In this document: one piece after another, positions 43,395-58,346 of the stretch | Numbering within the stretch: the first letter of the stretch is position 1 | How the letters are laid out: each line of letters begins with the position of its first letter | From: Patescibacteria group bacterium | Lineage (GTDB): Bacteria; Patescibacteriota; Microgenomatia; 2-02-FULL-39-11 | Reading direction: 5' to 3' | NCBI GenBank assembly: GCA_023379265.1 | Contig: JAMCUI010000019.1 | Span: 9,233 to 73,232, forward strand | Length of the DNA: 64,000 bases | The notes under the pieces: model-generated | Databases searched by the model: none | What the model was told of the DNA's origin: nothing | The model's input: only the letters and a program-made list of their open reading frames with translations | Position numbers and translations under genes: made by a program

Positions 43395-44171
43395 ATGGCA
43401 GCAGTAAAACCATCCATTTCAGTGTTTTTTCCCTTCCTCAACGATTGGGGAACGGTGGGAAGCCTTGTGGGTTTGACTGTAGATACTGTGAGCCGGTTGG
43501 CAGATGATTGGGAAGTGATAATAGTAAATGATGGCAGCGACGAAAAAGATAAAGAAGCTTTGGAGAAGATTGTTGGAGTGATTGAAAAGCAGGATAAGAT
43601 TAAACAAAAAACAAAAAGAATAAGAATTATAAACCATACAAAGAACATGGGATACGGAGGAGCGCTGAGGACAGGCTTCATGGCGGCAAAAAAGGATCTA
43701 GTCTTTTATACCGACTGTGATGCGCAGTATGACCCACGGGAGCTGATAAAGCTTTATGCTGCCATGAAGCCTGGGGTTTCCATGGTCAACGGATACAAGA
43801 TAAAAAGGCAGGATCCTTGGGTTAGGATAGTGGCGGGAAGGCTTTATCATTATACTGTGAGAACTGCGTTTGGTTTACCTATACGTGATACGGATTGTGA
43901 TTTCAGGTTAATACGAACGGAAGTGTTTAATCCCTCTCCAGGGTCAGGACACTCTGCTGTTAGGCTTTTTGAAAATACAGGCACAATTTGTACGGAGCTA
44001 GTGAAGAAAATAGACCATCATGGCTATAAAATTGTAGAGGTACCAGTGCACCATTTCTGGAGGACAAGCGGCAAAAGCCAGTTTTTCAACTTCAGGAGAC
44101 TGGTACAGACTGGTAACAATCTTTTTAGGTTGTGGTGGAAGTTGATGGTAAAAAACGATTACAACTCATGA
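43395..44171 (+). CDS. GT2 polyprenyl-phosphate glycosyltransferase (DPM1/GtrB/ArnC-like)
   Basis: IIVNDGSDEKD and the DXD motif DCDAQYDP; a size of about 258 aa. Confidence 0.8.
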   Translation: MAAVKPSISVFFPFLNDWGTVGSLVGLTVDTVSRLADDWEVIIVNDGSDEKDKEALEKIVGVIEKQDKIKQKTKRIRIINHTKNMGYGGALRTGFMAAKKDLVFYTDCDAQYDPRELIKLYAAMKPGVSMVNGYKIKRQDPWVRIVAGRLYHYTVRTAFGLPIRDTDCDFRLIRTEVFNPSPGSGHSAVRLFENTGTICTELVKKIDHHGYKIVEVPVHHFWRTSGKSQFFNFRRLVQTGNNLFRLWWKLMVKNDYNS

Positions 44172-44842
44172 AACCTGATACAAATATTAAAACAATCCTC
44201 GGTAGAATTTACCGCGTAAGGTATCCTAAAGAGATAGAGTTCCCAAAAGAAGCAATATGGAAAGTGCTTTGTCATGATTGGCTCCAGAAATTCGTTGGTA
44301 GAAGTGATACGGTTTTGGATATTGCAGCGGGACATTGTGAGTTTATAAATAATATCGTTTGCGGGAAGAAGTTTGCAGTGGATCTGGATAATAGGATTAA
44401 AAAATATGCAAACCCAGATGTTCAAATATTTATAAGATCAGCAGAAGACTTGCCTAAGAGCTTGAAAAATAAGGTGGACGTGGTGTTTATGGGATGTTTC
44501 TTGGAACATCTACCCTCCAAACAAGCAATAATTAAGGTCTTACTTGAGATTAAAAGTGTACTAAGGGATGGTGGAAAACTCATAATATTGAACCCGAATA
44601 TCAGATTTTCCACTTCAGATTACTGGGATTATTTTGATCATATTACTCCTGTAAGTGACCGCAGTATGGTGGAAATATTACAGGCGTTAGGTTTTAAGAT
44701 AGAAATTTGTTTGCCAAGGTTTGTTCCCAACACATTAAAGGATAGATTACCAAAATCACCCTTTTTGGTAAGATTATATCTTTCAATGCCATTTCTTTTT
44801 CCAATATTTGGTAAACAGATGTTTCTTGTAGTAGTTAAATGA
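44168..44842 (+). CDS. Class I SAM-dependent methyltransferase
   Basis: Motif I LDIAAGHCEF and LRDGGKLIILNP. The start ATG overlaps the GT2 stop codon (ATGA). Confidence 0.6.
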   Translation: MKPDTNIKTILGRIYRVRYPKEIEFPKEAIWKVLCHDWLQKFVGRSDTVLDIAAGHCEFINNIVCGKKFAVDLDNRIKKYANPDVQIFIRSAEDLPKSLKNKVDVVFMGCFLEHLPSKQAIIKVLLEIKSVLRDGGKLIILNPNIRFSTSDYWDYFDHITPVSDRSMVEILQALGFKIEICLPRFVPNTLKDRLPKSPFLVRLYLSMPFLFPIFGKQMFLVVVK

Positions 44843-44846
44843 CGGT

Positions 44847-46592
44847 CTAAAGTAATGGATTAGTTAATTTTATTTGGTATATTTTTACGGGTCCATTGTC
44901 AAAAATCTTCTCCAGAAAAGAGTATTTATTTATATCTCCTCCCAGATCTTTTTCCTGCCAGCCGTAGTAGATATAATTTATGCCGTTATCCCTCAGGAAT
45001 TTATACGCCTCCTGCGAGGTCCATTTGCCCCCAAAAAAGTTGTCCACATTTTGCTCTTTCGCTTGGTAATCCATAGTCTGGGTCACATGGCCGAAATAGC
45101 TTATGGTAGGGTTAAAGGCGGGGATAATGATACCCATTTTTTCGTTACTCAGAAAAACAGAATTTTTAGGAACATTTTCCTTTATGAACTTCATCGCATC
45201 CACGGAAGTTTTGGGGATATAAATATGGTCATAGACCGGCTCGTTTTTGATATAATCCATCCTGGTTTTCCATAACTTGAAAGATGAGGGAAGGGTAGTG
45301 GCAAAGAATAAGACTATAAGTGAGTATTGGATAAGACGTTTTTTTATCGGTGGGATAATCTTAAAAATTGTATAACCTGAAAGTATGCCTAAGGGAATAT
45401 ATGGTGCTTCCTCTACCAGCCTTATTTTGGCTATTCCGAAAGGATTGACAAATGGCAACATGATAAAAGGGGTTGCCGCCCAGACGCTAATAAAAAGCAG
45501 TTCCCAGCTGTTTTTTTTCACTGCGTGGTAAACTGCCGGAATTGAGAGTAAGGGAAGTATTCCGAATACTTCCAAAAGGTTCCTATTGAAATCCGGTTCT
45601 CCCCAGTTCCATCTCTCCACTCCCCAGGAGACCCATGTACTCCAGGGGAATCCCGTTGTCACTTGGTATTTGATGATGGCATAACACGCCAGTATTGCAA
45701 AAATTATGACTGAAAAACCTTTAATAAGCTGTAAGTTAATAATCAGTTTAAGTTTTGCCATATTTCGTTTCGGGTCGTGCCACTCACTACCCAGTAAATT
45801 TGGTTGCAAATTTACTGGGTACCTGGCTCGTGTTACCCGTTTAATTTCAAAATAAATTCGGGCAATATAGATAAAGTAAGCAATAGGTATGCCAACTGCT
45901 ACAGGAATGAGGACGGACGGCAGTATCATGCCGCCAATAAATATTGATATGGCGGCCAAAAGGGCATATTTTAGTTTCGGCTTCCTGAAAAAAAGAAATA
46001 CAAGTAAAATGGCGGCAAGAAGAAAAGCTTCTGAAGCGATATAGTGGGGGAGGTCATAAATCCTGTTTAGCGCATCAAGCACAATCCACCAGGGCATGCT
46101 GATGGGAAAATAGATAGGTTGCGCAAACATCAGTGTTGGGGAAATTGTGCCCAGAAGTCCGAATATAGCCCCCCAAATGGCATTTTTTCTGCTCAATATT
46201 TTTCCTGAGAGAAAGTAAACAAGTATCAGAAAAATCTCTGTAAATATTATTATTGTCAGGTGGTATGCAGCAATAGGTGAAAGGTGAAACAAGCCCGCAA
46301 CCTGTCCTATGCCGGTAAAAAATGTGTAGAATACGCCTTTCGACATTTTTTCCGTAGAGTATGGGTCTTGGTAGAGAAACCGGCCGTTTTCCCCTTGGTT
46401 TATGACGGCAAGATAAAGGTAATAGTCATGTGGCCAGTCGGAATGCACATATGGGAAAATTCGATCATGCGGGGTCTTGGCGGCACGCAAAATTATCGGC
46501 ACATTGGCAAAAATGACTACCAGGTTCATCAAGATAAAAAAGATGACAAAGCGAATGGATATAGATGTGTTTTTTTGTGGTTGTACAGACAT
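44847..46592 (-). CDS. Polytopic membrane protein, paralog family A
   Basis: HSDWPHDYYLYLAVINQG and ...YFGHVTQTMDYQAKEQNVDNFFGGKWTSQEAYKFL..INYIYYG. Confidence 0.5.
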   Translation of the reverse strand: MSVQPQKNTSISIRFVIFFILMNLVVIFANVPIILRAAKTPHDRIFPYVHSDWPHDYYLYLAVINQGENGRFLYQDPYSTEKMSKGVFYTFFTGIGQVAGLFHLSPIAAYHLTIIIFTEIFLILVYFLSGKILSRKNAIWGAIFGLLGTISPTLMFAQPIYFPISMPWWIVLDALNRIYDLPHYIASEAFLLAAILLVFLFFRKPKLKYALLAAISIFIGGMILPSVLIPVAVGIPIAYFIYIARIYFEIKRVTRARYPVNLQPNLLGSEWHDPKRNMAKLKLIINLQLIKGFSVIIFAILACYAIIKYQVTTGFPWSTWVSWGVERWNWGEPDFNRNLLEVFGILPLLSIPAVYHAVKKNSWELLFISVWAATPFIMLPFVNPFGIAKIRLVEEAPYIPLGILSGYTIFKIIPPIKKRLIQYSLIVLFFATTLPSSFKLWKTRMDYIKNEPVYDHIYIPKTSVDAMKFIKENVPKNSVFLSNEKMGIIIPAFNPTISYFGHVTQTMDYQAKEQNVDNFFGGKWTSQEAYKFLRDNGINYIYYGWQEKDLGGDINKYSFLEKIFDNGPVKIYQIKLTNPLL

Positions 46593-46762: not shown

Positions 46763-47749
46763 ATGAAGAAGAGTTTTTATAATGGAAAAAAAATACTTAT
46801 TACCGGCGGGTTGGGGTTTATCGGCAGTAATCTGGCTGTAAGATTGGTTGAAGAGGGTGCCAACGTGCTTCTTGTTGATTCCATGATCCCAGCCTATGGC
46901 GGAAATCTCTTCAATATTGAACCCGTAAAGCAAAAGGTAAAAATAAACTTTTCCGATATCAGGGATACAACCAGCATGAATTATTTGGTGCATGAAAAGG
47001 ATGTCATTTTCAACCTCGCCGGTACTCTTTCCCATGTGGACAGTATGACTGATCCTATGACAGACCTTGAGATAAACTGCCGTGCACAATTATCTCTTCT
47101 TGAATCGGTCAGAAGATACAACCCGGGAACCAGCGTAATATTTGCCGGGACCAGAAACCAATATGGCAAGGCAAAGTATCTTCCGGTTGACGAGAATCAT
47201 CCGCAGGAACCCGCAGATATAAACGGTATAAATAATATCGCCGCCGAAAAATACCACCTTATGTATACAAAGGTGTATGGCATAAAGACAGTGTCATTGA
47301 GAATGACCAATGTTTTTGGTCCTAGGCACCAGATGAAGCATTCCAGGCAGGGTGTCCTTAATTGGTTCATAAGGAAAATTTTGGATGGTGAGACGGTAGA
47401 GTTGTATGGAACTGGGCGACAAATAAGGGATGTAAATTATATTGATGACGTTATCGATGCTTTGCTTATGGTTGCGGAAGGAGAAAGCGGCTGGGGAGAG
47501 GCATATAATTTGGGTGGGACACCTGTATCACTAACTGATTTTGTTAAAAAGTCTATTAAGATTGCCGGAGGAGGCAAATATAAAGAAGTGGACTTTCCAA
47601 AAGAGAGGAAAAAAATAGAAATAGGAGATTATATTGCCTCATATGAAAAAATAAAAAAAACATATTCCTGGAAACCAAAAATAACTCTTGATGAAGGTAT
47701 TAGAAAAACCATTTTATACTATAAAAAGTACAGGAAATTCTATTGGTAA
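46763..47749 (+). CDS. NAD-dependent sugar-nucleotide epimerase/dehydratase (SDR; UDP-glucose 4-epimerase / UDP-glucuronate decarboxylase-like)
   Basis: KKILITGGLGFIGSNL Rossmann motif and the catalytic YGKAK (YxxxK). Confidence 0.8.
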   Translation: MKKSFYNGKKILITGGLGFIGSNLAVRLVEEGANVLLVDSMIPAYGGNLFNIEPVKQKVKINFSDIRDTTSMNYLVHEKDVIFNLAGTLSHVDSMTDPMTDLEINCRAQLSLLESVRRYNPGTSVIFAGTRNQYGKAKYLPVDENHPQEPADINGINNIAAEKYHLMYTKVYGIKTVSLRMTNVFGPRHQMKHSRQGVLNWFIRKILDGETVELYGTGRQIRDVNYIDDVIDALLMVAEGESGWGEAYNLGGTPVSLTDFVKKSIKIAGGGKYKEVDFPKERKKIEIGDYIASYEKIKKTYSWKPKITLDEGIRKTILYYKKYRKFYW

Positions 47750-47776
47750 GTATTAGTTGAGATTTTGTTAAGAAAA

Positions 47777-49066
47777 ATGCGCAAGTGGCTATTCATAATT
47801 TTGCTTTTGGTGACGGGTGTAATTTTCAGAGTCTGGCTAATCAGTCTTGTGCCACAACCGGTTATATTTGATGCTTCAGAATATAGCATCCTGGCTGAGC
47901 GCATACTTTACTTCCCTTTCTATACCGACTCATTTCGGTCTTACGGTTATCCCATTATTGTTTCTTTCATCTATTCTTTTTTTGGTCCCAGCAATTATTG
48001 GGCCTGGAAAATAATGCAATCGGTAATGGACGTGAGTGTTGCGTTGATGGTTTTTCTTATGGCAGGAGTGCTTTTTAGAAAGAATAAACCGGCCGCATTA
48101 ATTACCCTTGTTATTTACATATTTAATCCGTATACGTCGGCTTATGCGGGTTTACTTTTAACTGAGAGCGCGACCATACTTTTTATAACGCTCTCTTTTT
48201 TTCTGTTGTTAAAATTTTTGGAGAAAAAAAATATTTATTATCTTTTGGCGCTGGGGTTTGTGCTAGGTTATTTGCCTCAAGTGCGTCCGGGTTACATATT
48301 TTTCTCCTTTCTGCTCCTTATTTTTATATCGGTATATGTGTTTCGACGTCTTTTTAAAACTATGGAAGGTAAAGCTGCCCTGGTATTGTCGCTATTTCTA
48401 TTTTGTCTGCCGTTTGCCTACAACGTTATAGGAAATTACAGGTACCGTCAGCAAATTACGCCATTTTTAGCCGACAATATGTTCGTACAGAATCTTTACG
48501 GCAGTCTTTATGTGGAAAGATATATGCCCTTATTTGGAGCAAAGGTACGAGGAGATCCGCCAGAGGTACGTCAGATGTATGCTGAGTATTCATCCAAAAC
48601 GATAGCTCCACAAAGGAAAGCCGTAGCGGATAAATATATGAAACTGTCTATTGCAAAAATTGAAAGCGACCCAAAAGAGTTTGTTTTATCCCGTTTTCGG
48701 AAAATGTGGTACATATGGGAGAAGCATGCGTTGTTTCTGTACGTAAATGAGCCGCAAAGATATGAAAATTATGTCTATTGGGGAAATATCACATTGCTGG
48801 CTTTATTTGTTATCGGGCTATATGCCTATTGGAGGAAGCTGGTAAAGAAAGGTTCTGTCGGAGGATGGTTTGTGAAATTCACAGTACTGTTTATTGTATA
48901 TGTTTCAGCGGTGCACGCTTTTACTCCCAACGAGGAGAGATACTCAATTCCTGCTTATCCCCTTATATTCCTTTTTGCCGGGTACGGAGTTTTTACGGCG
49001 TGGGAGAAAATAAAGTTTTTTATTTTTGCGTCCAGGCAAAAAAATAATGAAGTTTCAGAATCTTAA
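47777..49066 (+). CDS. ArnT/PMT-like GT-C membrane glycosyltransferase
   Basis: First-loop FDASEYSILAERIL (D/E-x-x-Y), about 11 TM helices. Start moved to the ATG at 47777 (ORF track: TTG at 47765). Confidence 0.5.
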   Translation: MRKWLFIILLLVTGVIFRVWLISLVPQPVIFDASEYSILAERILYFPFYTDSFRSYGYPIIVSFIYSFFGPSNYWAWKIMQSVMDVSVALMVFLMAGVLFRKNKPAALITLVIYIFNPYTSAYAGLLLTESATILFITLSFFLLLKFLEKKNIYYLLALGFVLGYLPQVRPGYIFFSFLLLIFISVYVFRRLFKTMEGKAALVLSLFLFCLPFAYNVIGNYRYRQQITPFLADNMFVQNLYGSLYVERYMPLFGAKVRGDPPEVRQMYAEYSSKTIAPQRKAVADKYMKLSIAKIESDPKEFVLSRFRKMWYIWEKHALFLYVNEPQRYENYVYWGNITLLALFVIGLYAYWRKLVKKGSVGGWFVKFTVLFIVYVSAVHAFTPNEERYSIPAYPLIFLFAGYGVFTAWEKIKFFIFASRQKNNEVSES

Positions 49067-50279
49067 AAAATACCTCTTTAAGAATAAATACCAGGTTATA
49101 GTCTTTTTTTTCCTGCTTTTGGTTTTTGCCACGGCATTCAGACTTGTGGAGAACTATTCCGAAATAATCGACGAATACTACCATTTTGGACAGATTACGC
49201 GCTTTCTCGGACATGATTTTTCTCTGGAGCCTGGCTTATCGACCCTGCCGGGATTTCATCTTCTTGTGGCATTTATATTGCAACTACTTGGGGAAAAAGG
49301 TCTTCCCTGGGCTCGGTTTGTGACTTTTATGTTTAATCTTCTGACTATCCCTGTTTTTTATGCTGCCGCAAGAAAAATAGAAGAGAAGGCAGCATTTGTT
49401 AGGACAATGCAGTTTGCTTTTCTTCCTATAATTTTCCCGTATTACCCGTTGGTCTATACGGACATATTTTCACTTCTTTTGGTTTTTTGCGCATTGTTTT
49501 TGGCATTGTCAAAGAAATATTATCTCTCAGGCATTGTGGCAACGTTGAGCATAGCTGTCAGACAAAACAACATCATTTGGCTTATGTTTATAAATTTGTT
49601 GACATTTATATCGGAATCGGGGTTAAAAATTAATGTTCAGACAGTCAGAAATCATATAAAAAGGAGCCTGACGTTTATATTGGGAGCATTATTATTTATT
49701 CTGTTTGTTTTGGTAAATCACGGTTTTGCCACAGGCGCCAAAAGTTTCCAGCATGTAACATTTTTGAATATGGGCAACTTGTATTTCTTTCTCTTTTCAT
49801 TTTCCATCATCATGCTGCCGCAAAGCCTGGCAAGTTTTCCCAAAATTGTTGCTTTTTTGAGAAAAGAAAAGAAAAGTATCCTTTTGATATTTATTTTTTT
49901 CCTCCTTCTCTTACTTTCATTTCAAAATAGCCATCCCTGGAACCAATATACTTATTTCCTGAGGAATAAAATTCTGGTTGCTGCTGCCTCCAGCCCTCCG
50001 TTAAAATTGCTATATTTTATACCAATAGTTTATGGTTTTATAATGTTTTTTATAGTAAGACTACAGAAGAAGGAATACTATCTTTTATACCCGTTTATCA
50101 TTCTTTATCTTTTGCCCTCATGGCTTGTGGAGGTCCGGTATCTTTTTATCCCTTTTGCAATGTACCTGCTTTTTAGGAAAAGACTATCAGATAGGGTTGA
50201 GAAGGTAACAGCCGCCTATTTCTTTACTTTGTCTATAGTATTCTTCTGGGGGTTGGTGAATTGGGTTTTCTTTTTGTGA
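49047..50279 (+). CDS. ArnT/PMT-like GT-C membrane glycosyltransferase
   Basis: IIDEYYHFGQ DE motif in the first loop. ATG at 49047 (ORF track: TTG at 49026). Confidence 0.5.
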   Translation: MKFQNLKKYLFKNKYQVIVFFFLLLVFATAFRLVENYSEIIDEYYHFGQITRFLGHDFSLEPGLSTLPGFHLLVAFILQLLGEKGLPWARFVTFMFNLLTIPVFYAAARKIEEKAAFVRTMQFAFLPIIFPYYPLVYTDIFSLLLVFCALFLALSKKYYLSGIVATLSIAVRQNNIIWLMFINLLTFISESGLKINVQTVRNHIKRSLTFILGALLFILFVLVNHGFATGAKSFQHVTFLNMGNLYFFLFSFSIIMLPQSLASFPKIVAFLRKEKKSILLIFIFFLLLLLSFQNSHPWNQYTYFLRNKILVAAASSPPLKLLYFIPIVYGFIMFFIVRLQKKEYYLLYPFIILYLLPSWLVEVRYLFIPFAMYLLFRKRLSDRVEKVTAAYFFTLSIVFFWGLVNWVFFL

Positions 50280-50358: not shown

Positions 50359-50490
50359 ATGAGTTGTTTGAAAGTGATATTTGAATATTTCTTTCAATTA
50401 AAAAGTTGGAGTAAACATTCCTTATGCGATCTTCGGAAGTTTACACATGTTTCGCGGCTTTTTAACGACTCGTTTTTCTCAATAGAGTGA
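50359..50490 (+). CDS. Candidate 43-aa small protein downstream of a conserved-motif RBS; hypothetical
   Basis: GGGAGA lies 8 nt upstream of the ATG, inside the conserved upstream motif. The ORF overlaps a repeated intergenic element and could be non-coding. Confidence 0.2.
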   Translation: MSCLKVIFEYFFQLKSWSKHSLCDLRKFTHVSRLFNDSFFSIE

Positions 50491-52002: not shown

Positions 52003-53199
52003 ATGAAAACAATGATTCCGGTGTTTAATATCAAAAGACAAAATAAGGAAATAGGGGAGAAGCTGAAGAAAGAAATTGAAAAGGTAGTGGAAGGCGGACT
52101 TTATATATTGGGGCCGAACGTGGGTGAATTTGAGAAAGGATTTGCCAGATATTTGGGCGTGAAATATGCCGTGGGTGTAGCCTCTGGTACAGACGCTTTG
52201 TCTTTGGCGCTTTTGGCCTGTGGAGTGAATCCGGATGATGAGGTAATACTTCCGGCCAACTCTTATCCTTCCTCTTTTGCCATAACCGCAATTGGTGCAA
52301 TACCAAAACTGGTTGATATAGAAAAAGATACTTTTAATATTCGCCCATCCCAGATTTCCCGTGTAATTACTAAAAAGGCAAAAGCAATAATGCCTGTACA
52401 CCTTTATGGCCAGCCGGCAGATATGGATAAGATTATGGTGATAGCCAGAAAATATAACCTGAAAGTTGTGGAAGATTGCGCGCAGGCGCATGGAGCAATG
52501 GTGAAGGTAATGAATAAGGAATTAAGAATTGAGAATTATGGGAGGGGGAATGAAAAAAGTAATCAAAGCGCCTTGGAAAATTGGAAGAAGGTTGGAACTA
52601 TAGGCGATGTCGGTTGTTTCAGTTTTTACCCGACCAAAAATCTGGGGGCTTTTGGGGACGGGGGAATGGTGGTGACAAATAATCCCGATATTTATGAAAA
52701 ACTGAAGCTCTTGAGAATGTATGGAGAAAAAGGGCGTTATAACAGTATTTTGGTTGGAAGAAACAGTAGGCTGGATGAACTACAGGCAGCAATTTTACTT
52801 GTAAAGTTAAAGTATTTGGATAAATGGGATGAGAGAAGAAGAGAAATTGCGAGATTATATTTTTCTTTATTTGAAGAAGAAGCCGTAAAGGCAAAAGTGG
52901 TTTTACCTTACGGGGCCTCAAACGTTTGGCACGTCTATCATCTCTTTGTAATCAGGATCAAAAAGAGAAGCGAACTGAAGAAATATCTGGAAAAATATGG
53001 TATTCAAACTGCAATACATTATCCTGTGCCGATACATTTATCTCCATCTATGAGATTTTTGGGATACATGGAAGGTGATTTTCCTGAAAGTGAAAGCGCC
53101 GCGGAAGAAGTGTTGTCCTTGCCAATGTTTCCTGAATTGGCAGATGAAGAAGTCAAAAAAGTGGCCCAGGCTGTAATAAAGTTTTATGAAAAGTCATAA
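52003..53199 (+). CDS. DegT/DnrJ/EryC1/StrS-family PLP-dependent sugar aminotransferase (ArnB-like)
   Basis: PLP-lysine motif CFSFYPTKNLGAFGDGGMVVTN. ATG at 52003 (ORF track: GTG at 51994). An insertion of about 30 aa precedes the Lys motif. Confidence 0.85.
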   Translation: MKTMIPVFNIKRQNKEIGEKLKKEIEKVVEGGLYILGPNVGEFEKGFARYLGVKYAVGVASGTDALSLALLACGVNPDDEVILPANSYPSSFAITAIGAIPKLVDIEKDTFNIRPSQISRVITKKAKAIMPVHLYGQPADMDKIMVIARKYNLKVVEDCAQAHGAMVKVMNKELRIENYGRGNEKSNQSALENWKKVGTIGDVGCFSFYPTKNLGAFGDGGMVVTNNPDIYEKLKLLRMYGEKGRYNSILVGRNSRLDELQAAILLVKLKYLDKWDERRREIARLYFSLFEEEAVKAKVVLPYGASNVWHVYHLFVIRIKKRSELKKYLEKYGIQTAIHYPVPIHLSPSMRFLGYMEGDFPESESAAEEVLSLPMFPELADEEVKKVAQAVIKFYEKS

Positions 53200-53253: not shown

Positions 53254-55533
53254 TTGCCTAATGGCTTTAAAAGTGGTAAAAAAAGCCAGTTACTTTTCCT
53301 GCCTTTTGACAGATTGTATTCCAATCAGAGTAGGATATTTCAATTTCTCTTCAGGTTGTGGCCGTTTATTTTTATCCTTGTCTTTGCAGGGTTAATGCTG
53401 GGTAAAGGAGTGTTTCCGCCTGCCGGGAAATATATATACGGGTATGACGTGGAAGCCGGAATTTTCTATAGCAAGTCATATTTTGCAAATTCTATAAAAC
53501 AAGGGAAAATACCGTTTTGGGATCCGTATACCTTTGGTGGCGTTCCCTTTTTAGCCAACCCGGGACTGGCAGCGTTTTACCCTCCAAACTGGCTGTTTCC
53601 TGTTCTGCCGTTTGGGATAGCTTTGTCTCTTTACTATTTTTTCCATTTATTTCTTGCTACGGTAGGTGCTTATTGGCTGATGAGGAAAAGGAAGTATGAC
53701 AAATTGTCATCTCTTGCTTCCGGATTAGTTTTTGGCATGTCGGGGATGATGTTTGCCAGGATATTTTTGGGACATGTCGAATATGTTGCCTCAATATCAT
53801 ATATACCCGTTATCTTTGGCGCCGTTATGGAAATTTCCGAAAATAATCGCAGAAGATATTTAGCTTTAGGTATCATCTCCTTGACGCTTCAAATGTTGTC
53901 GGGGAACCCGGTGGTGGTTTTTTTTACACTTGAACTGGCAGGTTTATACATCATTTTTGACATACTTACGTCAATTATTATCGACCGCAAACGGAAAAAG
54001 AGATGGAAGTATTATCTCCTGAAGGTCTTATTGCCGGTTTTGGTTATTCTTGTTGCCGCAGGACTCAGCTCAATTCAGATAATCCCTACAATACAGCTGT
54101 CGTGGGAGACTATACGCAGCGGGGGATTGGCGTATATGACTGCAGCAGGAGGATCGCTTTTAACCGGAATGCTCCAAATGCTTTTTGCGCCTTACAGTTG
54201 GGGGAACCCTTTTATACTAAACGGCAATTATTACGGACCCTGGCCCAATTTTTTTGAATTTACTTATTTTGTAGGGAAAATTGCTATTCTGTTGGGAATA
54301 TTTGCTTTTACCCAAAGCGTATTTTATGCAGTCAAGGAGAAAAGGGCCAACCGTCTGACGGTATTTAGCGTCGCTTCGCTTATCTTTTTCATTGCCATGT
54401 CACTTGGACAGAATTTCTGGCTGTTCAAAATTTTTTATGATATTGTGCCTTTTTTCAGTTCATTCCGTATTCCGGTTCGCCACATGATTATTGTAGTTTT
54501 CCTCCTGTCTATTCTTTCCGGAATTGGAATGGCAAAAATAAAATACCCTTTTTTACAGCTTTTGGTTTTTGTCATTCTTGTTGTCGAGCTTTACATTTTC
54601 CACTTGCCGTTTATTCGCATAGCCAGTTTGCCTACAGCCGGCAATGACCCCAAAATCTTTGACATAGTAAAAAAAGACAGTGATATTTCAAGGCTTTACC
54701 TGCATTACCAGACATGGAATGATACCAGAAAAACTTTGGATTTTGACAGCGGGCCTTTCTATAAGATACAGATGGTGGGAGGTTACGGACCGGTTATTCT
54801 GAATAATTATTATAGGTTTATAGATCTTGCAAGGGGAGAGACGAAAGATAGATCCACGATTGCCCAATTTCCGGTGGAGCTGCCGCCGATACCTTCCCAG
54901 TCAAGCATATTGGATTTCCTTAATGTGAAGTATTTATTTATACCTTCCTATATTCAGGATATAGGAGGTAACTATGATAATAAACTGTCTCTCGTTTATA
55001 AGGAAAAGTGGTCGCAGGATGCGTTGTATGTAAACAATAAATCCTTTCAGCGTTTTTTTCTTGTGCCGAAGATAGAGGTGTATCCGGCGGGCAGTATCGG
55101 CAAAATATTAGTAGAAGAAAAAAAGAATTTATCAAAAATGGTCTTATACGGTAATCAGGATGGTAGTTATCCTTCACAACAACCGGACTGTTCTGACAAT
55201 CAAAACCCGGGTACCGTATCAATAAAGGAATACAGCGCTGAAATAATAGTCCTTTCAGTTAATGCAAATTGCAATAGCATTCTCTCCTCAAGCGAAGTGT
55301 ATTTTCCCGGTTGGCAGGCTACAATTGATGGTAGACAGACAAGAATTTATGAAAGCAACTTGGCCTTTAGGTCAATTTTTATACCTCAGGGAAGACATGG
55401 GATAGTCATGTATTATAATCCGCAAGTGTTTTATGTCGGAGGAGTAATTTCTGTATTTTCACTGTTTATTTATATGGTATTATTGAGAATTATTCCGGAT
55501 AAAGGGGGTAGAGATGATAAGAAAGATGTATAA
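53254..55533 (+). CDS. YfhO-like GT-C membrane protein (tentative)
   Basis: N-terminal YGYDVEAGIFYSKSYFANSIKQGKIPFWDPYTFGGVPFL, compared with the YfhO N-terminal pattern D.G.QY..F....R..L..G.......G...Y..SP. About 13 TM helices plus a C-terminal beta-rich domain. TTG start. Confidence 0.45.
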   Translation: MPNGFKSGKKSQLLFLPFDRLYSNQSRIFQFLFRLWPFIFILVFAGLMLGKGVFPPAGKYIYGYDVEAGIFYSKSYFANSIKQGKIPFWDPYTFGGVPFLANPGLAAFYPPNWLFPVLPFGIALSLYYFFHLFLATVGAYWLMRKRKYDKLSSLASGLVFGMSGMMFARIFLGHVEYVASISYIPVIFGAVMEISENNRRRYLALGIISLTLQMLSGNPVVVFFTLELAGLYIIFDILTSIIIDRKRKKRWKYYLLKVLLPVLVILVAAGLSSIQIIPTIQLSWETIRSGGLAYMTAAGGSLLTGMLQMLFAPYSWGNPFILNGNYYGPWPNFFEFTYFVGKIAILLGIFAFTQSVFYAVKEKRANRLTVFSVASLIFFIAMSLGQNFWLFKIFYDIVPFFSSFRIPVRHMIIVVFLLSILSGIGMAKIKYPFLQLLVFVILVVELYIFHLPFIRIASLPTAGNDPKIFDIVKKDSDISRLYLHYQTWNDTRKTLDFDSGPFYKIQMVGGYGPVILNNYYRFIDLARGETKDRSTIAQFPVELPPIPSQSSILDFLNVKYLFIPSYIQDIGGNYDNKLSLVYKEKWSQDALYVNNKSFQRFFLVPKIEVYPAGSIGKILVEEKKNLSKMVLYGNQDGSYPSQQPDCSDNQNPGTVSIKEYSAEIIVLSVNANCNSILSSSEVYFPGWQATIDGRQTRIYESNLAFRSIFIPQGRHGIVMYYNPQVFYVGGVISVFSLFIYMVLLRIIPDKGGRDDKKDV

Positions 55534-56083
55534 GAAAGATGCTATAAGGGTGGCAGGGATTCATCAAAGAGAATTGTCCGGTTTCCTGCCGGAATTGGGA
55601 ATAGAGTTCCTACAGGCTTTTTATGAAACATCATTAAATATCCCAGAGATGTTTACATATATTCATCTTCAGAATGAACAAATTTCCGGATTCGTCAGCG
55701 GAATAAATACCGTCAACGGGTTGAATAAAAGATTGATATCACGTAATCCGAAAGCCTTTATTTTGCCACTTTTGAGGTTTTTTCTTACTCATCCCATGCG
55801 GACTGTCAAATTAGTCAAAACCTTCTCCTATCCGGGGTTCACAGGCGATATCCCAGAGTTATTATCTATCGCCGTAGATGGTAGGTGGCAACGGAGGGGT
55901 ATTGGTAAGAAGCTTTTTTTCACGACTGTTGATGAGTTTAAAAAAAGAGGGATTAAAAAATTCAGAATTAGTGTATATGACAGATTATCCGCAAATGAGT
56001 TTTACCGGAAAATCGGCTGCAGGTTTGAAACCTCATTTACTTTCCTGGGGGAGAAGATGAATTATTATTTATACAAGATTTGA
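55514..56083 (+). CDS. GNAT-family N-acetyltransferase
   Basis: Acetyl-CoA-binding motif IAVDGRWQRRGIGKKLF. Confidence 0.7.
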   Translation: MIRKMYKKDAIRVAGIHQRELSGFLPELGIEFLQAFYETSLNIPEMFTYIHLQNEQISGFVSGINTVNGLNKRLISRNPKAFILPLLRFFLTHPMRTVKLVKTFSYPGFTGDIPELLSIAVDGRWQRRGIGKKLFFTTVDEFKKRGIKKFRISVYDRLSANEFYRKIGCRFETSFTFLGEKMNYYLYKI

Positions 56084-56112: not shown

Positions 56113-56153
56113 AAGCTGCTCGGAGTGAATTTTTTTCTTCGTAAGGATAGGAG
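56113..56153 (+). promoter_or_regulatory. Conserved upstream motif copy 2 (AAGCTGCTCGGAGTGAATTTTTTTCTTCGTAAGGATAGGAGA), ending 8 nt before the ATG at 56162
   Basis: Near-identical to 43273-43316. It contains the RBS of the downstream gene. Confidence 0.4.
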
Positions 56154-56161
56154 ATTGAAAG

Positions 56162-57952
56162 ATGCTAAAAAAACTTTTTTTATTAATTCCTGAAAAATTA
56201 GTAATTGCGGTAGAATTGGGGCTTATTGGCCTTTTTCTGTATTGGCACTGGCGGCTTGGCATGATGCGCTTTTTTGACATAGATGAATTTGCCCATCTCC
56301 ACTGGACTCATGATCTTTTTACGGGTCTTCGACCCTATACTGATTTTTTCTATTTTATCCCTCCTCTTTATCTTTTTGCCTTACTCCCCTTATTTTTTAT
56401 TTCGGGAAGGAGTGCGGCAATTTTTTTCCTGGGGCGGGGACTAGCTTTTGGCATATTTTTCGTTGTTTGTTTACTCTTGTTTTTATTGGTAAGAAAAGTA
56501 AGGGATAGCAGGGTAGCGCTATTATCGGTTTTGGTCTTGTCGTTTTTGCCCATACCTGCAGATAAATGGATAGAAATAAGACCGGACGGTCTGGCAATCC
56601 TCTTTGGAATGGTAGGAATGCTATTTTTGGTGAAAGGACTGAAGGATAAAAATAATACCCACTTTTTTATATCGGGACTTTTTTACTCATTGGGAGTTTT
56701 GGTCTTGCCGAAGATAGTTTTCTGGGCTTTTTGCGCAGCTTTCATAATTGCGATTTATCTTTTCATAAACCAGAAAAAAATAAAGGCCGGAAATTTTATA
56801 AAGTACCTTTTCGATTTATTTACCAGGTTCAAATGGCTGAAACTGTTTATTTTAGGAGTTTCCATACCCATAGTTCTTGTAGTAGCTCTTTTTATATATT
56901 TTGGCGATCCGGGAAAGGCTTTTTACCTTTCGACAAAGGTGGCTACCGATGCCACAAAAGTTCTGGGGAACAAGTTTCCCATCCCCCCCAATTTCCTTTT
57001 TTATCCAAATGATGTCTATTATGGGGCTCCGGGGGAAAGCTGGCCGTGGAAGATGAACCTTTTCGTCTGGATTGCAGCGGCAGTTTTTGCGATTATAAAG
57101 TTGGTATCTTTTCTGGATCGGGAAACTATTGAAGAGGGTCTTTCCCAGCTTCTTCTTGCCTTATCTTTTCTTCTTTACCTGGTTGCCTATATTTATATTT
57201 TTCCGCTTCGGCACGAACAGTATCTATTGCCGGCTTCAGTATTTGTAGCCTTTTACTTTGCCGATTTTGTCATTTCTTTATTTAGAAATTTAATGAGGCG
57301 GTGGAGAAGGGTAGGGGCTGCGTTTGGTGTAGGAGTGTTTATAGCTGTTTTGGGGTTGGTGTTTTGGTCGGGAAAGGATATGTATGACTGGAAGTTGCGC
57401 TGGTCAAGCCTGGACGTTTCTTTTTATAACCATCTTTTTTCACTTATACCCAAAAATGAAAAAGTTTTTGACCTGACGGGGGAAGCCATTTTTTCGCCAG
57501 ACGGATATTATTTCTGTTGTATACCGTATGGTCAGTATGACGAGGCGCTGCAGTTTCAATACCCGGATCTTGAAGCCGATTTGAGAAAGCAGAATGTGCA
57601 TTTTGTCTATATGCAGAGGGAAAACAGGATTTTTGTCCTGCCTGCTGAGCAGCAAAAAGTCATAAGACAGTACTATACGATATATCCAGATGGCAACCCT
57701 CCATACTTGTTGGTTTCCGGGGCACTGGTGAGCTTCTCCTATGCGGGGCAGCCGCAGGATTTTAACCTGATCGCATCGGGGAATTATGACCTTTTCTGGA
57801 ATTACCAAAAACTGACAGGTGGGCAAACCTCACGGATGGTAAAGATTGATGGTAAAATAGTGACGCAAAACCCTGTTTATTTATCGGCCGGAGAACATAC
57901 AATTGTGGTAAATTCATCGGCGGGGTTGATGAAACTGATGTATTCTTTTTAA
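56162..57952 (+). CDS. ArnT/PMT-like GT-C membrane glycosyltransferase
   Basis: First-loop FDIDEFAHLHW DE motif and about 12 TM helices. Confidence 0.5.
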   Translation: MLKKLFLLIPEKLVIAVELGLIGLFLYWHWRLGMMRFFDIDEFAHLHWTHDLFTGLRPYTDFFYFIPPLYLFALLPLFFISGRSAAIFFLGRGLAFGIFFVVCLLLFLLVRKVRDSRVALLSVLVLSFLPIPADKWIEIRPDGLAILFGMVGMLFLVKGLKDKNNTHFFISGLFYSLGVLVLPKIVFWAFCAAFIIAIYLFINQKKIKAGNFIKYLFDLFTRFKWLKLFILGVSIPIVLVVALFIYFGDPGKAFYLSTKVATDATKVLGNKFPIPPNFLFYPNDVYYGAPGESWPWKMNLFVWIAAAVFAIIKLVSFLDRETIEEGLSQLLLALSFLLYLVAYIYIFPLRHEQYLLPASVFVAFYFADFVISLFRNLMRRWRRVGAAFGVGVFIAVLGLVFWSGKDMYDWKLRWSSLDVSFYNHLFSLIPKNEKVFDLTGEAIFSPDGYYFCCIPYGQYDEALQFQYPDLEADLRKQNVHFVYMQRENRIFVLPAEQQKVIRQYYTIYPDGNPPYLLVSGALVSFSYAGQPQDFNLIASGNYDLFWNYQKLTGGQTSRMVKIDGKIVTQNPVYLSAGEHTIVVNSSAGLMKLMYSF

Positions 57953-57971
57953 TTGTTCATTTTTTCTGTTT

Positions 57972-58346
57972 ATGCTGAAAAATTATATTATCATACTTTT
58001 GACAATCTGCATCTCTGTCATTGCCCAGACGCTTTTGAAAACCGGGATGAAGGAGATAGGAACGGTTGAAAGTCTGTCACTTGAAAAAATTATTCCTCTT
58101 GCGATAAAGATGGGTACAAATGTTTTTGTCCTGGCGGGTCTTTCGCTTTACGGAATAGGTACTTTTTTTTGGCTTATTCTTCTTTCCCGACTTGATTTGT
58201 CATTTCTTTATCCTTTTGGTACGTTGCAATACTTTTTTATCTTTATTGTTTCATATCTGGTTTTTGGTGAGGATATAAAACTGGCCAGAATTGTGGGTGT
58301 GTCAATCATACTCGTGGGGATTTTTATAATAAGCAAGTTTGGGTGA
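57972..58346 (+). CDS. Small 4-TM DMT/EamA-like protein (ArnE/ArnF- or GtrA-like candidate lipid-linked sugar flippase)
   Basis: 124 aa with 4 predicted TM helices. The N-terminal ISVIAQTLLKTG pattern resembles ArnF. Confidence 0.45.
   Translation: MLKNYIIILLTICISVIAQTLLKTGMKEIGTVESLSLEKIIPLAIKMGTNVFVLAGLSLYGIGTFFWLILLSRLDLSFLYPFGTLQYFFIFIVSYLVFGEDIKLARIVGVSIILVGIFIISKFG

What the first reader, a model, noticed from the sequence alone, without database searches (positions are those of the whole stretch)
43395..58346. Arn-like module: aminotransferase, SDR dehydratase/epimerase, GT2 lipid-phosphate transferase, 4-TM flippase-like protein, GNAT and methyltransferase
In the Arn (L-Ara4N) pathway, ArnB (a DegT aminotransferase), the ArnA decarboxylase domain (SDR), ArnC (GT2), ArnE/F (small 4-TM flippase) and ArnT (GT-C) build and transfer an amino-pentose from undecaprenyl phosphate. 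Here the counterparts are DegT (52003-53199), SDR (46763-47749), GT2 (43395-44171), a 124-aa 4-TM protein (57972-58346) and many ArnT-like proteins. A GNAT (55514-56083) and a methyltransferase (44168-44842) are added and could N-acetylate or methylate the amino sugar. A formyltransferase or deformylase is not evident. This suggests a variant of the pathway that makes a distinct modified amino sugar.
Basis: partly seen in the sequence, partly recalled or inferred. Interest (0 to 1): 0.7.

Follow-up and report, generated by a model that had tools for sequence, protein, structure and literature searches.

The report
Lipid-carrier amino-sugar glycosylation gene cluster
A Gottesmanbacteria-like candidate-phyla bacterium carries genes that appear to make an N-acylated amino sugar, load it on a membrane lipid carrier, flip it outward and attach it to the cell surface with at least 13 membrane glycosyltransferases; the layout resembles the Arn polymyxin-resistance pathway, but the sugar and target differ and the first enzyme lacks the usual catalytic residues.

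Summary
All six ORFs exist as described. The window comes from a Patescibacteria genome close to Candidatus Gottesmanbacteria.

The "Arn-like" reading holds for architecture but not for chemistry.
- **Supports it:** The 258-aa GT2 is closest to ArnC, then GtrB and DPMS. The 124-aa protein is closest to ArnF. The aminotransferase has its PLP lysine. An unannotated family of five large membrane paralogs has a GT-C fold. In sister genomes the GNAT is fused to an ArnA-N-terminal-like formyltransferase.
- **Links the parts:** 80 loci from at least 8 phyla show a conserved core of short GT2, SDR and DegT, sometimes with a methyltransferase, the 4-TM protein and GT-C. SDR::DegT fusions exist.
- **Against it:**
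  - The SDR is not ArnA/UXS-like. It is nearest to UDP-hexose 4-epimerases.
  - Its catalytic Tyr is Asn and its Lys is Asn/Ser/Cys in all 120 close homologs.
  - The DegT sits nearer C-3 aminotransferases (QdtB, DesV) than ArnB.
  - No Ugd or deformylase is present.
  - The methyltransferase family travels with polyprenyl-phosphate-sugar systems in general.

Verdict: an uncharacterised, widespread three-component lipid-linked amino-sugar system. It is a new variant of a known kind, and the sugar identity is unresolved.

The parts
43395..44171 (+). Short (258 aa, no TM helix) GT2, predicted polyprenyl-phosphate glycosyltransferase (ArnC/GtrB/DPMS clade)
   Evidence: PF00535. Best NCBIfam hit is ArnC at 65 bits, far below the 529 cut-off. 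PDB hits are only ArnC and GtrB. The family profile A5 hits ArnC at 2e-32 over ArnC residues 8-226, GtrB at 3e-21 and DPMS at 2.5e-20. D107, D109 and Q111 are invariant, matching the ArnC DADLQN motif (PMC12690121). Orthologs at about 50% identity lie directly upstream of the SDR in 33 of 80 loci.
44168..44842 (+). Class I SAM methyltransferase with a hydrophobic C-terminal tail, translationally coupled to the GT2
   Evidence: Pfam Methyltransf_23/11. ATGA overlap with the GT2 stop. Orthologs at 47-72% identity sit beside polyprenyl-P-sugar genes in L093, L094 and L095. No similarity to TylM1/DesVI.
44847..46592 (-). GT-C-fold membrane glycosyltransferase, paralog of the 58356-59960 family
46763..47749 (+). 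Atypical extended SDR (T130-R131, D152, N154, N158), inferred maker of the keto-sugar
   Evidence: PF01370. Nearest structures are UDP-hexose/HexNAc 4-epimerases. The YxxxK dyad is replaced. DegT is adjacent in about 68 of 80 loci. SDR::DegT fusions exist. AF2 model pLDDT 96.8.
47765..49066 (+). GT-C (PMT_2) glycosyltransferase
   Evidence: PF13231. Orthologs follow the SDR in L009 and L010.
49026..50279 (+). GT-C of the DIE2/ALG10 family (gene callers start about 21 nt later, 410 aa)
   Evidence: PF04922, 115 bits. An ortholog lies between SDR and DegT in L011.
50462..51820 (-). GT-C (PMT_2) glycosyltransferase
   Evidence: PF13231. Orthologs lie between SDR and DegT in L004 and L007.
52003..53199 (+). 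DegT/DnrJ/EryC1 PLP-dependent sugar aminotransferase
   Evidence: PF01041, 377 bits. The PLP lysine is present in FYPTKNLGA. Best PDB hits are 7b0d, QdtB, WlaRG and DesV at 298-358 bits, against 150-170 bits for ArnB.
53254..55533 (+). YfhO-type GT-C glycosyltransferase (gene callers give 712 aa)
   Evidence: PF09586 C-terminal match and PgfM1/2-like hits. An ortholog follows DegT in L010.
55514..56083 (+). GNAT N-acyltransferase, inferred N-acetylation of the amino sugar
   Evidence: GNAT Pfam families and the RRGIGK acetyl-CoA motif. Orthologs at 42-55% identity lie directly after DegT in L004, L007 and L011. The L013 GNAT lies downstream of DegT with an intervening opposite-strand ORF call. 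In L004-L008 it is fused to an ArnA-NTD-like formyltransferase.
56162..57952 (+). GT-C (PMT_2) glycosyltransferase, the most constant GT-C partner of the SDR/DegT pair in Gottesmanbacteria
   Evidence: PF13231. Orthologs at 35-38% identity occur in L004, L007, L009 and L011; none was found in L010.
57972..58346 (+). 124-aa 4-TM DMT-superfamily protein, ArnE/F-like candidate flippase for the lipid-linked sugar
   Evidence: NCBIfam ArnF 52 bits (6e-14) and ArnE 29 bits. No EmrE or SMR hit in the PDB. Orthologs inside the cassette in L015, L040 and L067 pass the Pfam EamA/TMEM234 cut-offs. Same tight + strand gene run as DegT and GNAT (gaps of 9-81 nt or overlaps).
58356..59960 (+). GT-C-fold glycosyltransferase of a family without a Pfam or NCBIfam model
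60026..61828 (+). 600-aa polytopic membrane protein with a YfhO-like C-terminal segment
   Evidence: No family hit. Weak blastp match to the window YfhO, 1e-6. About 11 hydrophobic segments.
61909..63609 (+). GT-C-fold paralog (34% identical to 58356-59960)
   Evidence: blastp 1.7e-104.
39579..41279 (+). GT-C-fold paralog of the same family, just upstream of the finding
   Evidence: blastp to the paralogs; included in alignments A3 and A4.
41280..42935 (-). GT-C-fold paralog of the same family
   Evidence: blastp to the paralogs; included in alignments A3 and A4.

Best explanation
The locus encodes an extracytoplasmic, lipid-carrier-dependent ('three-component') glycosylation system with its own amino-sugar branch.

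Proposed sequence of steps; all are inferred from homology, synteny and fusions, and none is shown biochemically:
1. The atypical SDR converts a common UDP-sugar into a keto-sugar, most likely by C-4 chemistry given its epimerase-like fold.
2. The DegT enzyme transaminates the keto-sugar.
3. The GNAT N-acetylates the amine. In sister genomes a GNAT::formyltransferase does this step. It would pull an unfavourable transamination forward, as formylation does in Arn.
4. The TM-less, ArnC-like GT2 transfers the sugar to polyprenyl phosphate at the inner face of the membrane.
5. The ArnE/F-like 4-TM protein flips it.
6. The array of GT-C enzymes transfers it, together with other lipid-linked sugars, to surface acceptors. 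In a Patescibacterium these cannot be assumed to be lipid A. They are probably a wall glycopolymer or surface proteins.

The methyltransferase coupled to the GT2 probably methylates a lipid-linked or nucleotide sugar, but it is not specific to this branch.
For: - **Homology of each part:**
- **Gene order in the window:** DegT, YfhO, GNAT, PMT_2, 4-TM and three further membrane proteins lie on one strand with gaps of 9-81 nt or overlaps.
- **Gottesmanbacteria synteny:** SDR and DegT stay together in L004, L007, L009, L010 and L011. A PMT596-like GT-C accompanies them in four of these (not L010). The GNAT accompanies them in L004, L007 and L011. The GT2 ortholog (61% identity) lies 5 kb upstream in L009.
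- **Across at least 8 phyla:** the short GT2 lies directly upstream of the SDR in 33 of 80 loci, and DegT directly adjacent on the same strand (usually downstream) in about 68 of 80. The 4-TM ortholog is inside the cassette in L015, L040 and L067.
- **Compact operon in L012:** GT-C, MTase, ArnC-like GT2, SDR::DegT fusion, MTase.
- **Fusions:** SDR::DegT, SDR::MTase and GNAT::formyltransferase; a GT2+MTase gene product in L009. The formyltransferase domain is most similar to the ArnA N-terminal domain.
- **Precedents:** TM-less polyprenyl-P GT2s with small membrane partners, Ppm1/D2 and PpgS-Rv3632 (PMC3485146). Nucleotide-sugar SDRs that work without the catalytic Tyr, PglF and WbpM (PMC8987622).
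Against: - In this clade the SDR lacks both Tyr and Lys of the YxxxK dyad, so its ability to oxidise a sugar is unproven.
- The DegT's nearest solved relatives act at C-3 of dTDP-sugars. That fits poorly with a C-4 oxidising, UDP-epimerase-like SDR.
- In about half of the 80 loci the SDR-DegT pair occurs without the GT2, often beside GT4 genes. The nucleotide amino sugar can therefore also feed Leloir glycosyltransferases.
- In the window the parts are spread over 15 kb in at least three transcription directions.
- No GT2 or 4-TM gene lies within 10 kb of the pair in L004 or L007.
- The GT2 has no TM helix and all Arn equivalog scores are far below cut-off.
- No acceptor is known.
Confidence: 0.6

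Rival explanations
1. Two unrelated pathways happen to be neighbours. SDR-DegT-GNAT make a nucleotide amino sugar for cytoplasmic Leloir glycosyltransferases. The GT2, the 4-TM protein and the GT-Cs move a different, ordinary sugar (Glc, GlcNAc or Man) through polyprenyl phosphate.
For: About half of the SDR-DegT loci have no short GT2 next to them and often carry GT4 genes instead. L004 and L007 have no GT2 or 4-TM gene within 10 kb. The window also holds a GT4.
Against: The short GT2 abuts the SDR, often with overlapping stop and start codons, in 33 of 80 loci from at least 8 phyla. L012, L015, L040 and L067 are compact operons that mix all parts. DegT, GNAT and the 4-TM gene share one tight + strand run in the window.
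Confidence: 0.15
2. The sugar is a 3-amino-3,6-dideoxyhexose of the Qui3NAc/Fuc3NAc type. RmlA and RmlB elsewhere in the genome make dTDP-4-keto-6-deoxyglucose. The Tyr/Lys-less SDR is not an oxidoreductase but a keto-isomerase or epimerase. DegT then aminates C-3 and the GNAT acetylates. The lipid-carrier steps could still follow.
For: The DegT's best solved relatives are QdtB, WlaRG and DesV, plus 7b0d, whose function I could not identify (298-358 bits). Loss of the redox dyad with an invariant Asp152/Arg131 fits acid-base chemistry on a keto sugar. Some loci carry additional canonical SDRs or SDR::SDR fusions.
Against: No RmlA, RmlB or cupin isomerase is conserved beside the pair, and compact cassettes lack them. 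The Rossmann GxxGxxG motif and Asp39 are conserved, which suggests NAD is still used. 35 of 129 family representatives keep the Tyr. The GT2's relatives ArnC and GtrB use UDP-sugars (PMC12690121 and PMC11127046).
Confidence: 0.15
3. It is a true Arn (L-Ara4N) pathway that modifies a lipid A-like or phosphate-bearing acceptor.
Against: All scores are far below equivalog cut-offs: 65/529, 52/99 and 188/631. The SDR lacks the T-S-E and YxxxK signatures, scores only 37-66 bits on the ArnA/UXS models, and ArnA and UXS are absent from its top 50 structural neighbours. The window has no Ugd, no ArnD-type deformylase and no second flippase subunit. From general knowledge, the host is a Patescibacterium, a group described as lacking LPS.
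Confidence: 0.03
4. The SDR is a catalytically dead, regulatory or scaffolding subunit, and the keto-sugar comes from another enzyme.
For: Tyr and Lys are both absent in all 120 close homologs.
Against: Conservation is very strong: 68-81% identity across Gottesmanbacteria, with T130, R131, D152 and N154 invariant. The SDR is tightly paired with, and sometimes fused to, DegT. PglF and WbpM show that Tyr-less SDRs can be active.
Confidence: 0.07

Closest known systems
Arn (PmrHFIJKLM) L-Ara4N lipid A modification pathway of Enterobacteria, Pseudomonas and Burkholderia
   Same: The logic matches. An SDR makes a keto-sugar, a DegT aminotransferase aminates it, the amine is N-acylated, a GT2 loads it on polyprenyl phosphate, a small 4-TM DMT-type flippase moves it, and a GT-C transfers it. 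The GT2, the 4-TM protein and the relatives' formyltransferase domain each have an Arn protein as nearest characterised relative.
   Different: The SDR is GalE-like rather than UXS/ArnA-like and lacks YxxxK. The acyltransferase is a GNAT (formyltransferase only in relatives, fused to the GNAT rather than to the SDR). The GT2 lacks the two TM helices. There is one flippase gene rather than two. No Ugd or deformylase is present. There are at least 13 GT-Cs rather than one, and the host has no known lipid A.
Three-component periplasmic glycosylation systems (GtrA/GtrB/Gtr*; CsbB/GtcA/YfhO; PgfS/PgfM; the pentofuranose systems of Kelly et al. 2024, PMC11127046)
   Same: A polyprenyl-P GT2, a small flippase and a GT-C, including a YfhO-type enzyme. 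This is the kind of system under which the locus can be filed.
   Different: Those systems use a ready-made housekeeping UDP-sugar or PRPP. Here a dedicated SDR-DegT-acyltransferase branch is built into the cassette. The flippase is ArnE/F-like rather than GtrA-like.
Mycobacterial GalN modification of arabinogalactan (Rv3634c epimerase, PpgS/Rv3631 GT2, Rv3632 small membrane protein, Rv3779 GT-C) and the Emb/Aft GT-C arrays
   Same: An amino sugar is delivered through polyprenyl-P by a GT2 with a small membrane partner and a GT-C in a bacterium without LPS (PMC3485146). Rv3634c is among the closest structural neighbours of the SDR. AftA and EmbC are among the best matches of the new GT-C family. 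There are many GT-C paralogs per locus.
   Different: There is no aminotransferase in the mycobacterial route, which starts from UDP-GalNAc. No orthology has been demonstrated.
QdtB / DesV / WlaRG / WbpE sugar C-3 aminotransferases
   Same: These are among the highest sequence similarities to the window DegT, at 240-327 bits. A PLP lysine is present in the window DegT.
   Different: Those enzymes work with a 4,6-dehydratase plus a cupin 3,4-ketoisomerase, or with a Gfo/Idh/MocA oxidase. Neither is conserved beside this DegT. The regiochemistry here is untested.
PglF / WbpM UDP-GlcNAc 4,6-dehydratases (Mx3K SDRs)
   Same: They are a precedent for an active nucleotide-sugar SDR without the catalytic tyrosine (PMC8987622).
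   Different: They keep the T-D-K triad and the Lys of x3K, and belong to Polysacc_synt_2. The present family has [ST]-R and D-x-N-x3-K, or -N/S/C in this clade. That signature is not among those in the part of the review's signature table that I read.

Membership tests
Arn pathway (as an orthologous system) | ArnA C-terminal domain: UDP-GlcA oxidative decarboxylase of the UXS clade with T-S-E and YxxxK | tested here: not met
   ArnA model 37 bits against a 777 cut-off; U4kpxs model 66 bits against 294. UXS scores 98 bits against 141 for GalE in the PDB. The sequence reads T-R-N-Q and N-x3-N. ArnA and UXS are not among the top 50 structural neighbours.
Arn pathway (as an orthologous system) | ArnA N-terminal formyltransferase and ArnD deformylase | tested here: not met
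   No Formyl_trans_N or polysaccharide deacetylase domain in any window ORF of 110 aa or more. An ArnA-NTD-like domain is fused to the GNAT in relatives L004-L008.
Arn pathway (as an orthologous system) | ArnB: UDP-4-keto-pentose 4-aminotransferase | tested here: inconclusive
   The DegT fold and PLP lysine are present. The ArnB model scores 188 bits against a 631 cut-off. ArnB structures score 150-170 bits against 298-358 bits for C-3 aminotransferases. Substrate not tested.
Arn pathway (as an orthologous system) | ArnC: GT-A domain with DxDxQ, two juxtamembrane helices and two TM helices; uses only the N-formylated donor | tested here: inconclusive
   DxDxQ is invariant and the profile matches ArnC residues 8-226 at 2e-32. 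TM1 and TM2 (ArnC residues 230-305; PMC12690121) are absent. The equivalog score is 65 against 529. Donor not testable here.
Arn pathway (as an orthologous system) | ArnE/ArnF: two small 4-TM subunits | tested here: inconclusive
   There is one gene only. ArnF scores 52 bits (cut-off 99) and ArnE 29 bits (cut-off 92). Four hydrophobic segments.
Arn pathway (as an orthologous system) | Ugd supplying UDP-GlcA, and lipid A as acceptor | tested here: not met
   No UDPG_MGDP_dh domain in the window, and none conserved near the pair in 80 loci. The acceptor cannot be tested with these tools.
Three-component lipid-linked glycosylation system | Polyprenyl-phosphate GT2 synthase | tested here: met
   Met at the level of homology. 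The top three PDB families for profile A5 include all three structurally known Pren-P GTs (ArnC, GtrB, DPMS). NCBIfam hits are ArnC, PgfS and Dol-P-hexose transferase. Activity not tested.
Three-component lipid-linked glycosylation system | Small multi-TM flippase candidate encoded with the system | tested here: met
   An ArnF-like 4-TM protein lies in the DegT-GNAT-GT-C gene run. Orthologs lie inside the cassettes of L015, L040 and L067. Flipping is not testable here.
Three-component lipid-linked glycosylation system | GT-C fold transferase(s) | tested here: met
Extended SDR nucleotide-sugar epimerase/dehydratase | Rossmann GxxGxxG and an acidic residue for NAD | tested here: met
   TGGLGFIGS and D39 are invariant or nearly so.
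Extended SDR nucleotide-sugar epimerase/dehydratase | Catalytic Ser/Thr plus the YxxxK dyad | tested here: not met
   T130 is kept. Position 154 is Asn in 120 of 120 close homologs, and N85/Y35/H6/Q3 in 129 distant representatives. Position 158 is N88/S25/C7 in the close clade and K in 112 of 129 distant ones.
4,6-dehydratases (RmlB, Gmd, PglF types) | [ST]DE, [ST]DK or [ST]SE after the catalytic Ser/Thr | tested here: not met
   The sequence is T-R-N (family consensus [ST]-R-Q/G). Signature table in PMC8987622.
SMR (EmrE-type) drug exporter | Match to SMR models or structures and the membrane-embedded Glu of TM1 | tested here: not met
   No SMR Pfam or NCBIfam hit. No EmrE or Gdx hit in the PDB even at E=10. 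By eye, the position matching EmrE Glu14 is Ser; this alignment is made from memory of EmrE and is only a lead.

The most novel reading that the evidence does not exclude
The short GT2 - SDR - DegT cassette (with or without MTase, 4-TM protein and GT-C) is a widespread but never characterised route, present in Patescibacteria, Chloroflexota, Acidobacteriota, Latescibacterota, Planctomycetota, Actinomycetota and others. It would put a so far unidentified amino sugar on polyprenyl phosphate for extracytoplasmic glycosylation. Its committed step would be catalysed by an extended SDR that has replaced the universal Tyr-Lys dyad (Asn154, Asp152 and Arg131 instead), meaning a new catalytic solution in a textbook enzyme family. 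In Gottesmanbacteria the route would feed a mycobacterium-like array of at least 13 GT-C enzymes that builds the main surface glycan of these episymbiont-type cells.
Probability: 0.35. Interest if true: 0.75.

Novelty: new variant of a known kind. Interest (0 to 1): 0.58.

Why it matters
If the model is right, Arn-type logic is not a speciality of polymyxin-resistant Gram-negatives. That logic is to make an amino sugar, mask the amine, load the sugar on a lipid carrier, flip it and transfer it outside. It would instead be one instance of a much broader, unstudied family of cassettes found in many uncultivated phyla.

The locus offers three things:
- A concrete handle on the surface chemistry of Patescibacteria, whose envelope and host-attachment glycans are essentially unknown.
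- A compact set of genes that can be expressed, including natural SDR::DegT fusions and a TM-less ArnC relative, to identify a new lipid-linked amino sugar.
- An SDR family under strong purifying selection without the catalytic Tyr/Lys, which is of interest for enzyme mechanism and annotation. Databases currently call these proteins UDP-glucose 4-epimerase or GDP-mannose 4,6-dehydratase.

It also defines a new GT-C family that has no Pfam or NCBIfam model.

Tried and rejected
- **Exact look-up of the DegT** with the GTG start at 51994 found nothing. The gene is called from the ATG at 52003.
- **Methyltransferase as a TylM1/DesVI-like N,N-dimethyltransferase of a 3-amino sugar:** rejected. There is no PDB similarity beyond one weak generic hit. 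The cassette methyltransferases of other phyla ('HWWY' type) are not its orthologs. Its own orthologs sit beside UbiA/DprE1/DprE2, GtrA and GT2::PMT genes.
- **ADP-heptose as the SDR substrate,** suggested by GmhA/HldE-like genes abutting the SDR in L004-L008 and L011: not adopted. These genes are absent from the window and from most other loci; weak HldE-like hits occur in only three.
- **Search for conserved precursor genes** (Ugd, nucleotidyltransferase, RmlB, cupin isomerase) among neighbours in 80 loci: none. The recurrent clusters were methyltransferase, GT4 and, in Acidobacteria, MurJ, PBP and YqeY.
- **Promoter and terminator scan** of 42900-62800 was at chance level and uninformative.
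- **First alignment for the genome scan** was too diverse and was replaced by A2.
- **Literature searches** for this cassette, for Gottesmanbacteria glycosylation, for PDB entry 7B0D and for Asn-type SDRs found no description.
- **Crude ORF calling in high-GC loci** produced antisense shadow ORFs and read-through merges. I therefore relied on phmmer hits per ORF rather than on the clusters.

Full report
**Observation.** The public assemblies of the same organism call them the same way (L001-L003).
- Pfam confirms a GT2 (43395-44171), a class I methyltransferase (44168-44842), an extended SDR (46763-47749), a DegT aminotransferase (52003-53199) and a GNAT (55514-56083).
- The methyltransferase ATG overlaps the GT2 stop as ATGA.
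- The 124-aa protein (57972-58346) has four hydrophobic segments.
- Between and around these genes lie PMT_2, DIE2/ALG10 and YfhO-type membrane proteins.

The rest of the window is ordinary bacterial sequence (S1, RadA, Rho, HtrA, a two-component system). An identical SDR is on NCBI contig JAMDBJ010000023.1, a Patescibacteria group bacterium. All close relatives are Candidatus Gottesmanbacteria.

**The lipid-carrier half.**
- *GT2.* Its only PDB hits are ArnC and GtrB, and its best NCBIfam model is ArnC. I aligned 22 orthologs from many phyla (A5, 48% mean identity, invariant D107/D109/Q111). This matches the DADLQN motif of ArnC and DADLQD of GtrB described in PMC12690121. The profile hits ArnC at 2e-32 over ArnC residues 8-226, then GtrB (3e-21) and DPMS (2.5e-20), with chondroitin synthase as the only non-Pren-P enzyme in that range.
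- *No TM helices.* The protein ends in a conserved amphipathic helix and has no TM helices, whereas ArnC has two. TM-less polyprenyl-P synthases with small membrane partners are known in mycobacteria: Ppm1/D2, MSMEG3859/3860 and PpgS/Rv3632 (PMC3485146).
- *4-TM protein.* It scores best on ArnF (52 bits, 6e-14) and ArnE (29 bits), both below cut-off. It has no EmrE or SMR hit in the PDB even at E=10. Its orthologs in L015 and L067 pass the Pfam EamA and TMEM234 thresholds.

**The GT-C complement.** Five 534-581-aa paralogs have no Pfam or NCBIfam hit. They are 39579-41279, 41280-42935(-), 44847-46592(-), 58356-59960 and 61909-63609.
- A profile of the family touched only EmbC (E=0.01).
- An AlphaFold model of 58356-59960 built on 44 sequences is very confident (pLDDT 95.8, pTM 0.94).
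- Adding the Pfam-recognised GT-Cs in the whole window gives at least 13 GT-C proteins in 64 kb.

**The amino-sugar half: DegT.** It has its PLP lysine (FYPTKNLGA). Its best solved relatives are 7b0d (358 bits) and the C-3 aminotransferases QdtB (327), WlaRG (308) and DesV (298). WbpE follows at 240 bits, and ArnB reaches only about 150-170. I could not find what 7b0d does.

**The amino-sugar half: SDR.**
- Its best sequence and structural neighbours are UDP-hexose/HexNAc 4-epimerases: T. maritima GalE at 31% identity and TM 0.86-0.91, plus WbpP, WbgU and Rv3634c.
- UXS and ArnA score lower by sequence (98 against 141 bits) and are absent from the top 50 structures.
- In the HMMER alignment to GalE, the PYGIAK segment aligns to INGINN. 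The catalytic Tyr is therefore Asn154 and the Lys is Asn158.
- This is not a one-off. In 120 close homologs (68-100% identity), T130, R131, D152 and N154 are invariant, and position 158 is N/S/C, never K.
- In 129 representatives of the wider family (36-52% identity), position 154 is N85/Y35/H6/Q3 and position 158 is K in 112.
- After the catalytic Thr the family has Arg, not the DE, DK, SE or CE of the known dehydratase classes (PMC8987622).
- The Rossmann motif is intact.
- PglF and WbpM (Mx3K) show that a Tyr-less nucleotide-sugar SDR can be active. The signature seen here is not among those in the part of that review's table that I read.

**Are the parts one system? Gottesmanbacteria.**
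- In L004, L007, L009, L010 and L011, SDR and DegT stay together. A PMT596-like GT-C accompanies them in four of the five (not L010), and usually a second GT-C is present.
- The GNAT follows DegT directly in L004, L007 and L011. In L013 it also lies downstream of DegT, with an opposite-strand ORF call between them.
- The GT2 ortholog (61% identity) lies 5 kb upstream in L009.

**Are the parts one system? Wider distribution.** A scan of one genome per species with an SDR alignment returned 80 loci at 47-74% identity. They come from Chloroflexota, Acidobacteriota, Actinomycetota, Latescibacterota, Planctomycetota, Calditrichota, Nitrospira, Deltaproteobacteria, Verrucomicrobia, Chlorobiaceae, a cyanobacterium, an Azospirillum and a Woesearchaeota MAG.
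- A DegT ortholog abuts the SDR on the same strand in about 68 of 80.
- The window-type short GT2 (about 50% identity) lies directly upstream in 33 of 80.
- An ArnC-like long GT2 is adjacent in several others.
- The 4-TM ortholog is inside the cassette in L015, L040 and L067.

L012, a 54% GC organism, has the compact operon GT-C, MTase, ArnC-like GT2, SDR::DegT fusion, MTase. Pfam confirms SDR::DegT, SDR::SDR and SDR::MTase fusions. Within the window, DegT, YfhO, GNAT, PMT_2, the 4-TM gene and three more membrane proteins form one tight + strand run. I take this as good evidence for a functional unit, and the fusions as evidence that the SDR hands a keto-sugar to DegT.

**The acyl step.** In L004-L008 the GNAT ortholog (42-48% identity) carries a C-terminal Formyl_trans_N domain. 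The six best PDB hits of that protein are all ArnA N-terminal-domain or full-length ArnA entries (74.5 bits, 8e-20), ahead of Met-tRNA formyltransferase. That supports N-acylation of the amino sugar before lipid loading, as in Arn, where ArnC accepts only the formylated donor (PMC12690121). No deformylase or deacetylase was seen.

**The methyltransferase.** It is well conserved: 60-72% identity in Gottesmanbacteria and about 48% elsewhere. Its contexts are not amino-sugar specific.
- In Tahibacter (L093) it lies after UbiA, a DprE1-like gene, a DprE2-like gene and an FAD protein, and before GtrA and large membrane proteins.
- In L094 it lies between Ugd-SDR and a GT2::PMT fusion, followed by UbiA/DprE1/DprE2.
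- In L095 it lies next to a GT2.

The methyltransferases inside the Chloroflexi and Acidobacteria cassettes are a different subfamily. I conclude that it methylates some polyprenyl-P-linked or nucleotide sugar. Whether that is the amino sugar is open.

**What it is not.**
- It is not an orthologous Arn pathway. All equivalog scores are far below cut-off. The window has no UXS-type decarboxylase, no Ugd, no deformylase and only one flippase gene. From general knowledge, the host is not known to have lipid A.
- The sugar is unresolved. The epimerase-like SDR and the UDP-using GT2 relatives point to C-4 chemistry on a UDP-sugar. The DegT's relatives point to C-3 of dTDP-6-deoxyhexoses.
- No precursor gene is conserved nearby.

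**Verdict.** The best description is a three-component, lipid-carrier glycosylation system with a built-in amino-sugar branch. It is a new variant of a known kind, with two new elements: an SDR family without the canonical dyad, and a GT-C family without a model.

Noticed in passing
window 15103-23241 (- strand): A UbiA-family protein (20985-21905) has decaprenyl-phosphate phosphoribosyltransferase as its best NCBIfam hit (192 bits, cut-off 234). It sits next to an FAD oxidoreductase (21988-23241; NF005560, 408 bits) and three large membrane proteins, of which 16827-18815 and 18812-20833 hit PMT/TMEM260 and 15103-16830 has no family hit. This looks like a second lipid-linked donor system for a pentofuranose (cf. 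PMC11127046), but without DprE1/DprE2 homologs. The FAD protein has a 172-bit relative beside UbiA/DprE1/DprE2 in Tahibacter L093.
   Followed up: partly
L004-L008 and L011, upstream of the SDR: In sister Gottesmanbacteria the SDR start overlaps a GmhA-like SIS gene. Further upstream lie an HldE-like kinase/adenylyltransferase, several canonical SDRs, DUF6016, methyltransferases, a Zn-ADH and a split transketolase. Together these look like a modified-heptose nucleotide pathway that is absent from the window.
   Followed up: partly
L004 13491-14846; L007 13473-14840: GNAT::Formyl_trans_N fusion proteins (451-455 aa) whose formyltransferase half is most similar to the ArnA N-terminal domain. I know of no characterised enzyme with this domain combination.
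   Followed up: partly
window 5111-7567 (-) and 12748-14277 (+): A DUF2298 / TIGR03662 'chlor_Arch_YYY' membrane protein (482 bits) and a PMT_2 protein weakly matching TIGR03663 (Agl23-like), alongside a GT4 (11563-12729) and a methyltransferase (14305-15093). The two NCBIfam models carry names pointing to Chloroflexi and Archaea, and here both hit proteins of a Patescibacterium.
   Followed up: no
window 49026-50279: A bacterial member of the DIE2/ALG10 family (115 bits), known from eukaryotic Dol-P-Glc-dependent N-glycan glucosylation. It is conserved next to the SDR in L011 and L013.
   Followed up: no
L067 15348-17612: The GT-C that follows the GT2-SDR-DegT-4TM-MTase cassette in this locus carries TPR repeats and a weak, sub-threshold TMTC DUF1736 match (18 bits, cut-off 27). 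That faintly resembles eukaryotic TMTC protein O-mannosyltransferases and hints at protein acceptors in some lineages.
   Followed up: no
L021 (Woesearchaeota MAG), 6634-9801: An archaeal MAG carries a small 5-TM ORF, the short GT2, the SDR (55% identity) and DegT, so the cassette crosses the domain boundary. Contamination of the MAG was not checked.
   Followed up: no
window 29049-33119: A small NAD-salvage-looking group: an NrtR-type regulator, a protein with a quinolinate/nicotinate phosphoribosyltransferase N-terminal domain, a cytosine/purine-family permease and an isochorismatase-family (PncA-like) hydrolase.
   Followed up: no
window 33717-38491 (-): An 843-aa protein with no family hit sits next to a 663-aa protein with a C-terminal NPCBM/NEW2 glycan-binding domain, immediately upstream of the GT-C cluster. 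These are possible surface or glycan-processing proteins.
   Followed up: no
database annotations of the SDR family: Members of the Tyr/Lys-less SDR family are named 'UDP-glucose 4-epimerase', 'GDP-mannose 4,6-dehydratase' or 'NAD-dependent epimerase' in public records. Given the missing catalytic dyad, these names are probably wrong.
   Followed up: partly
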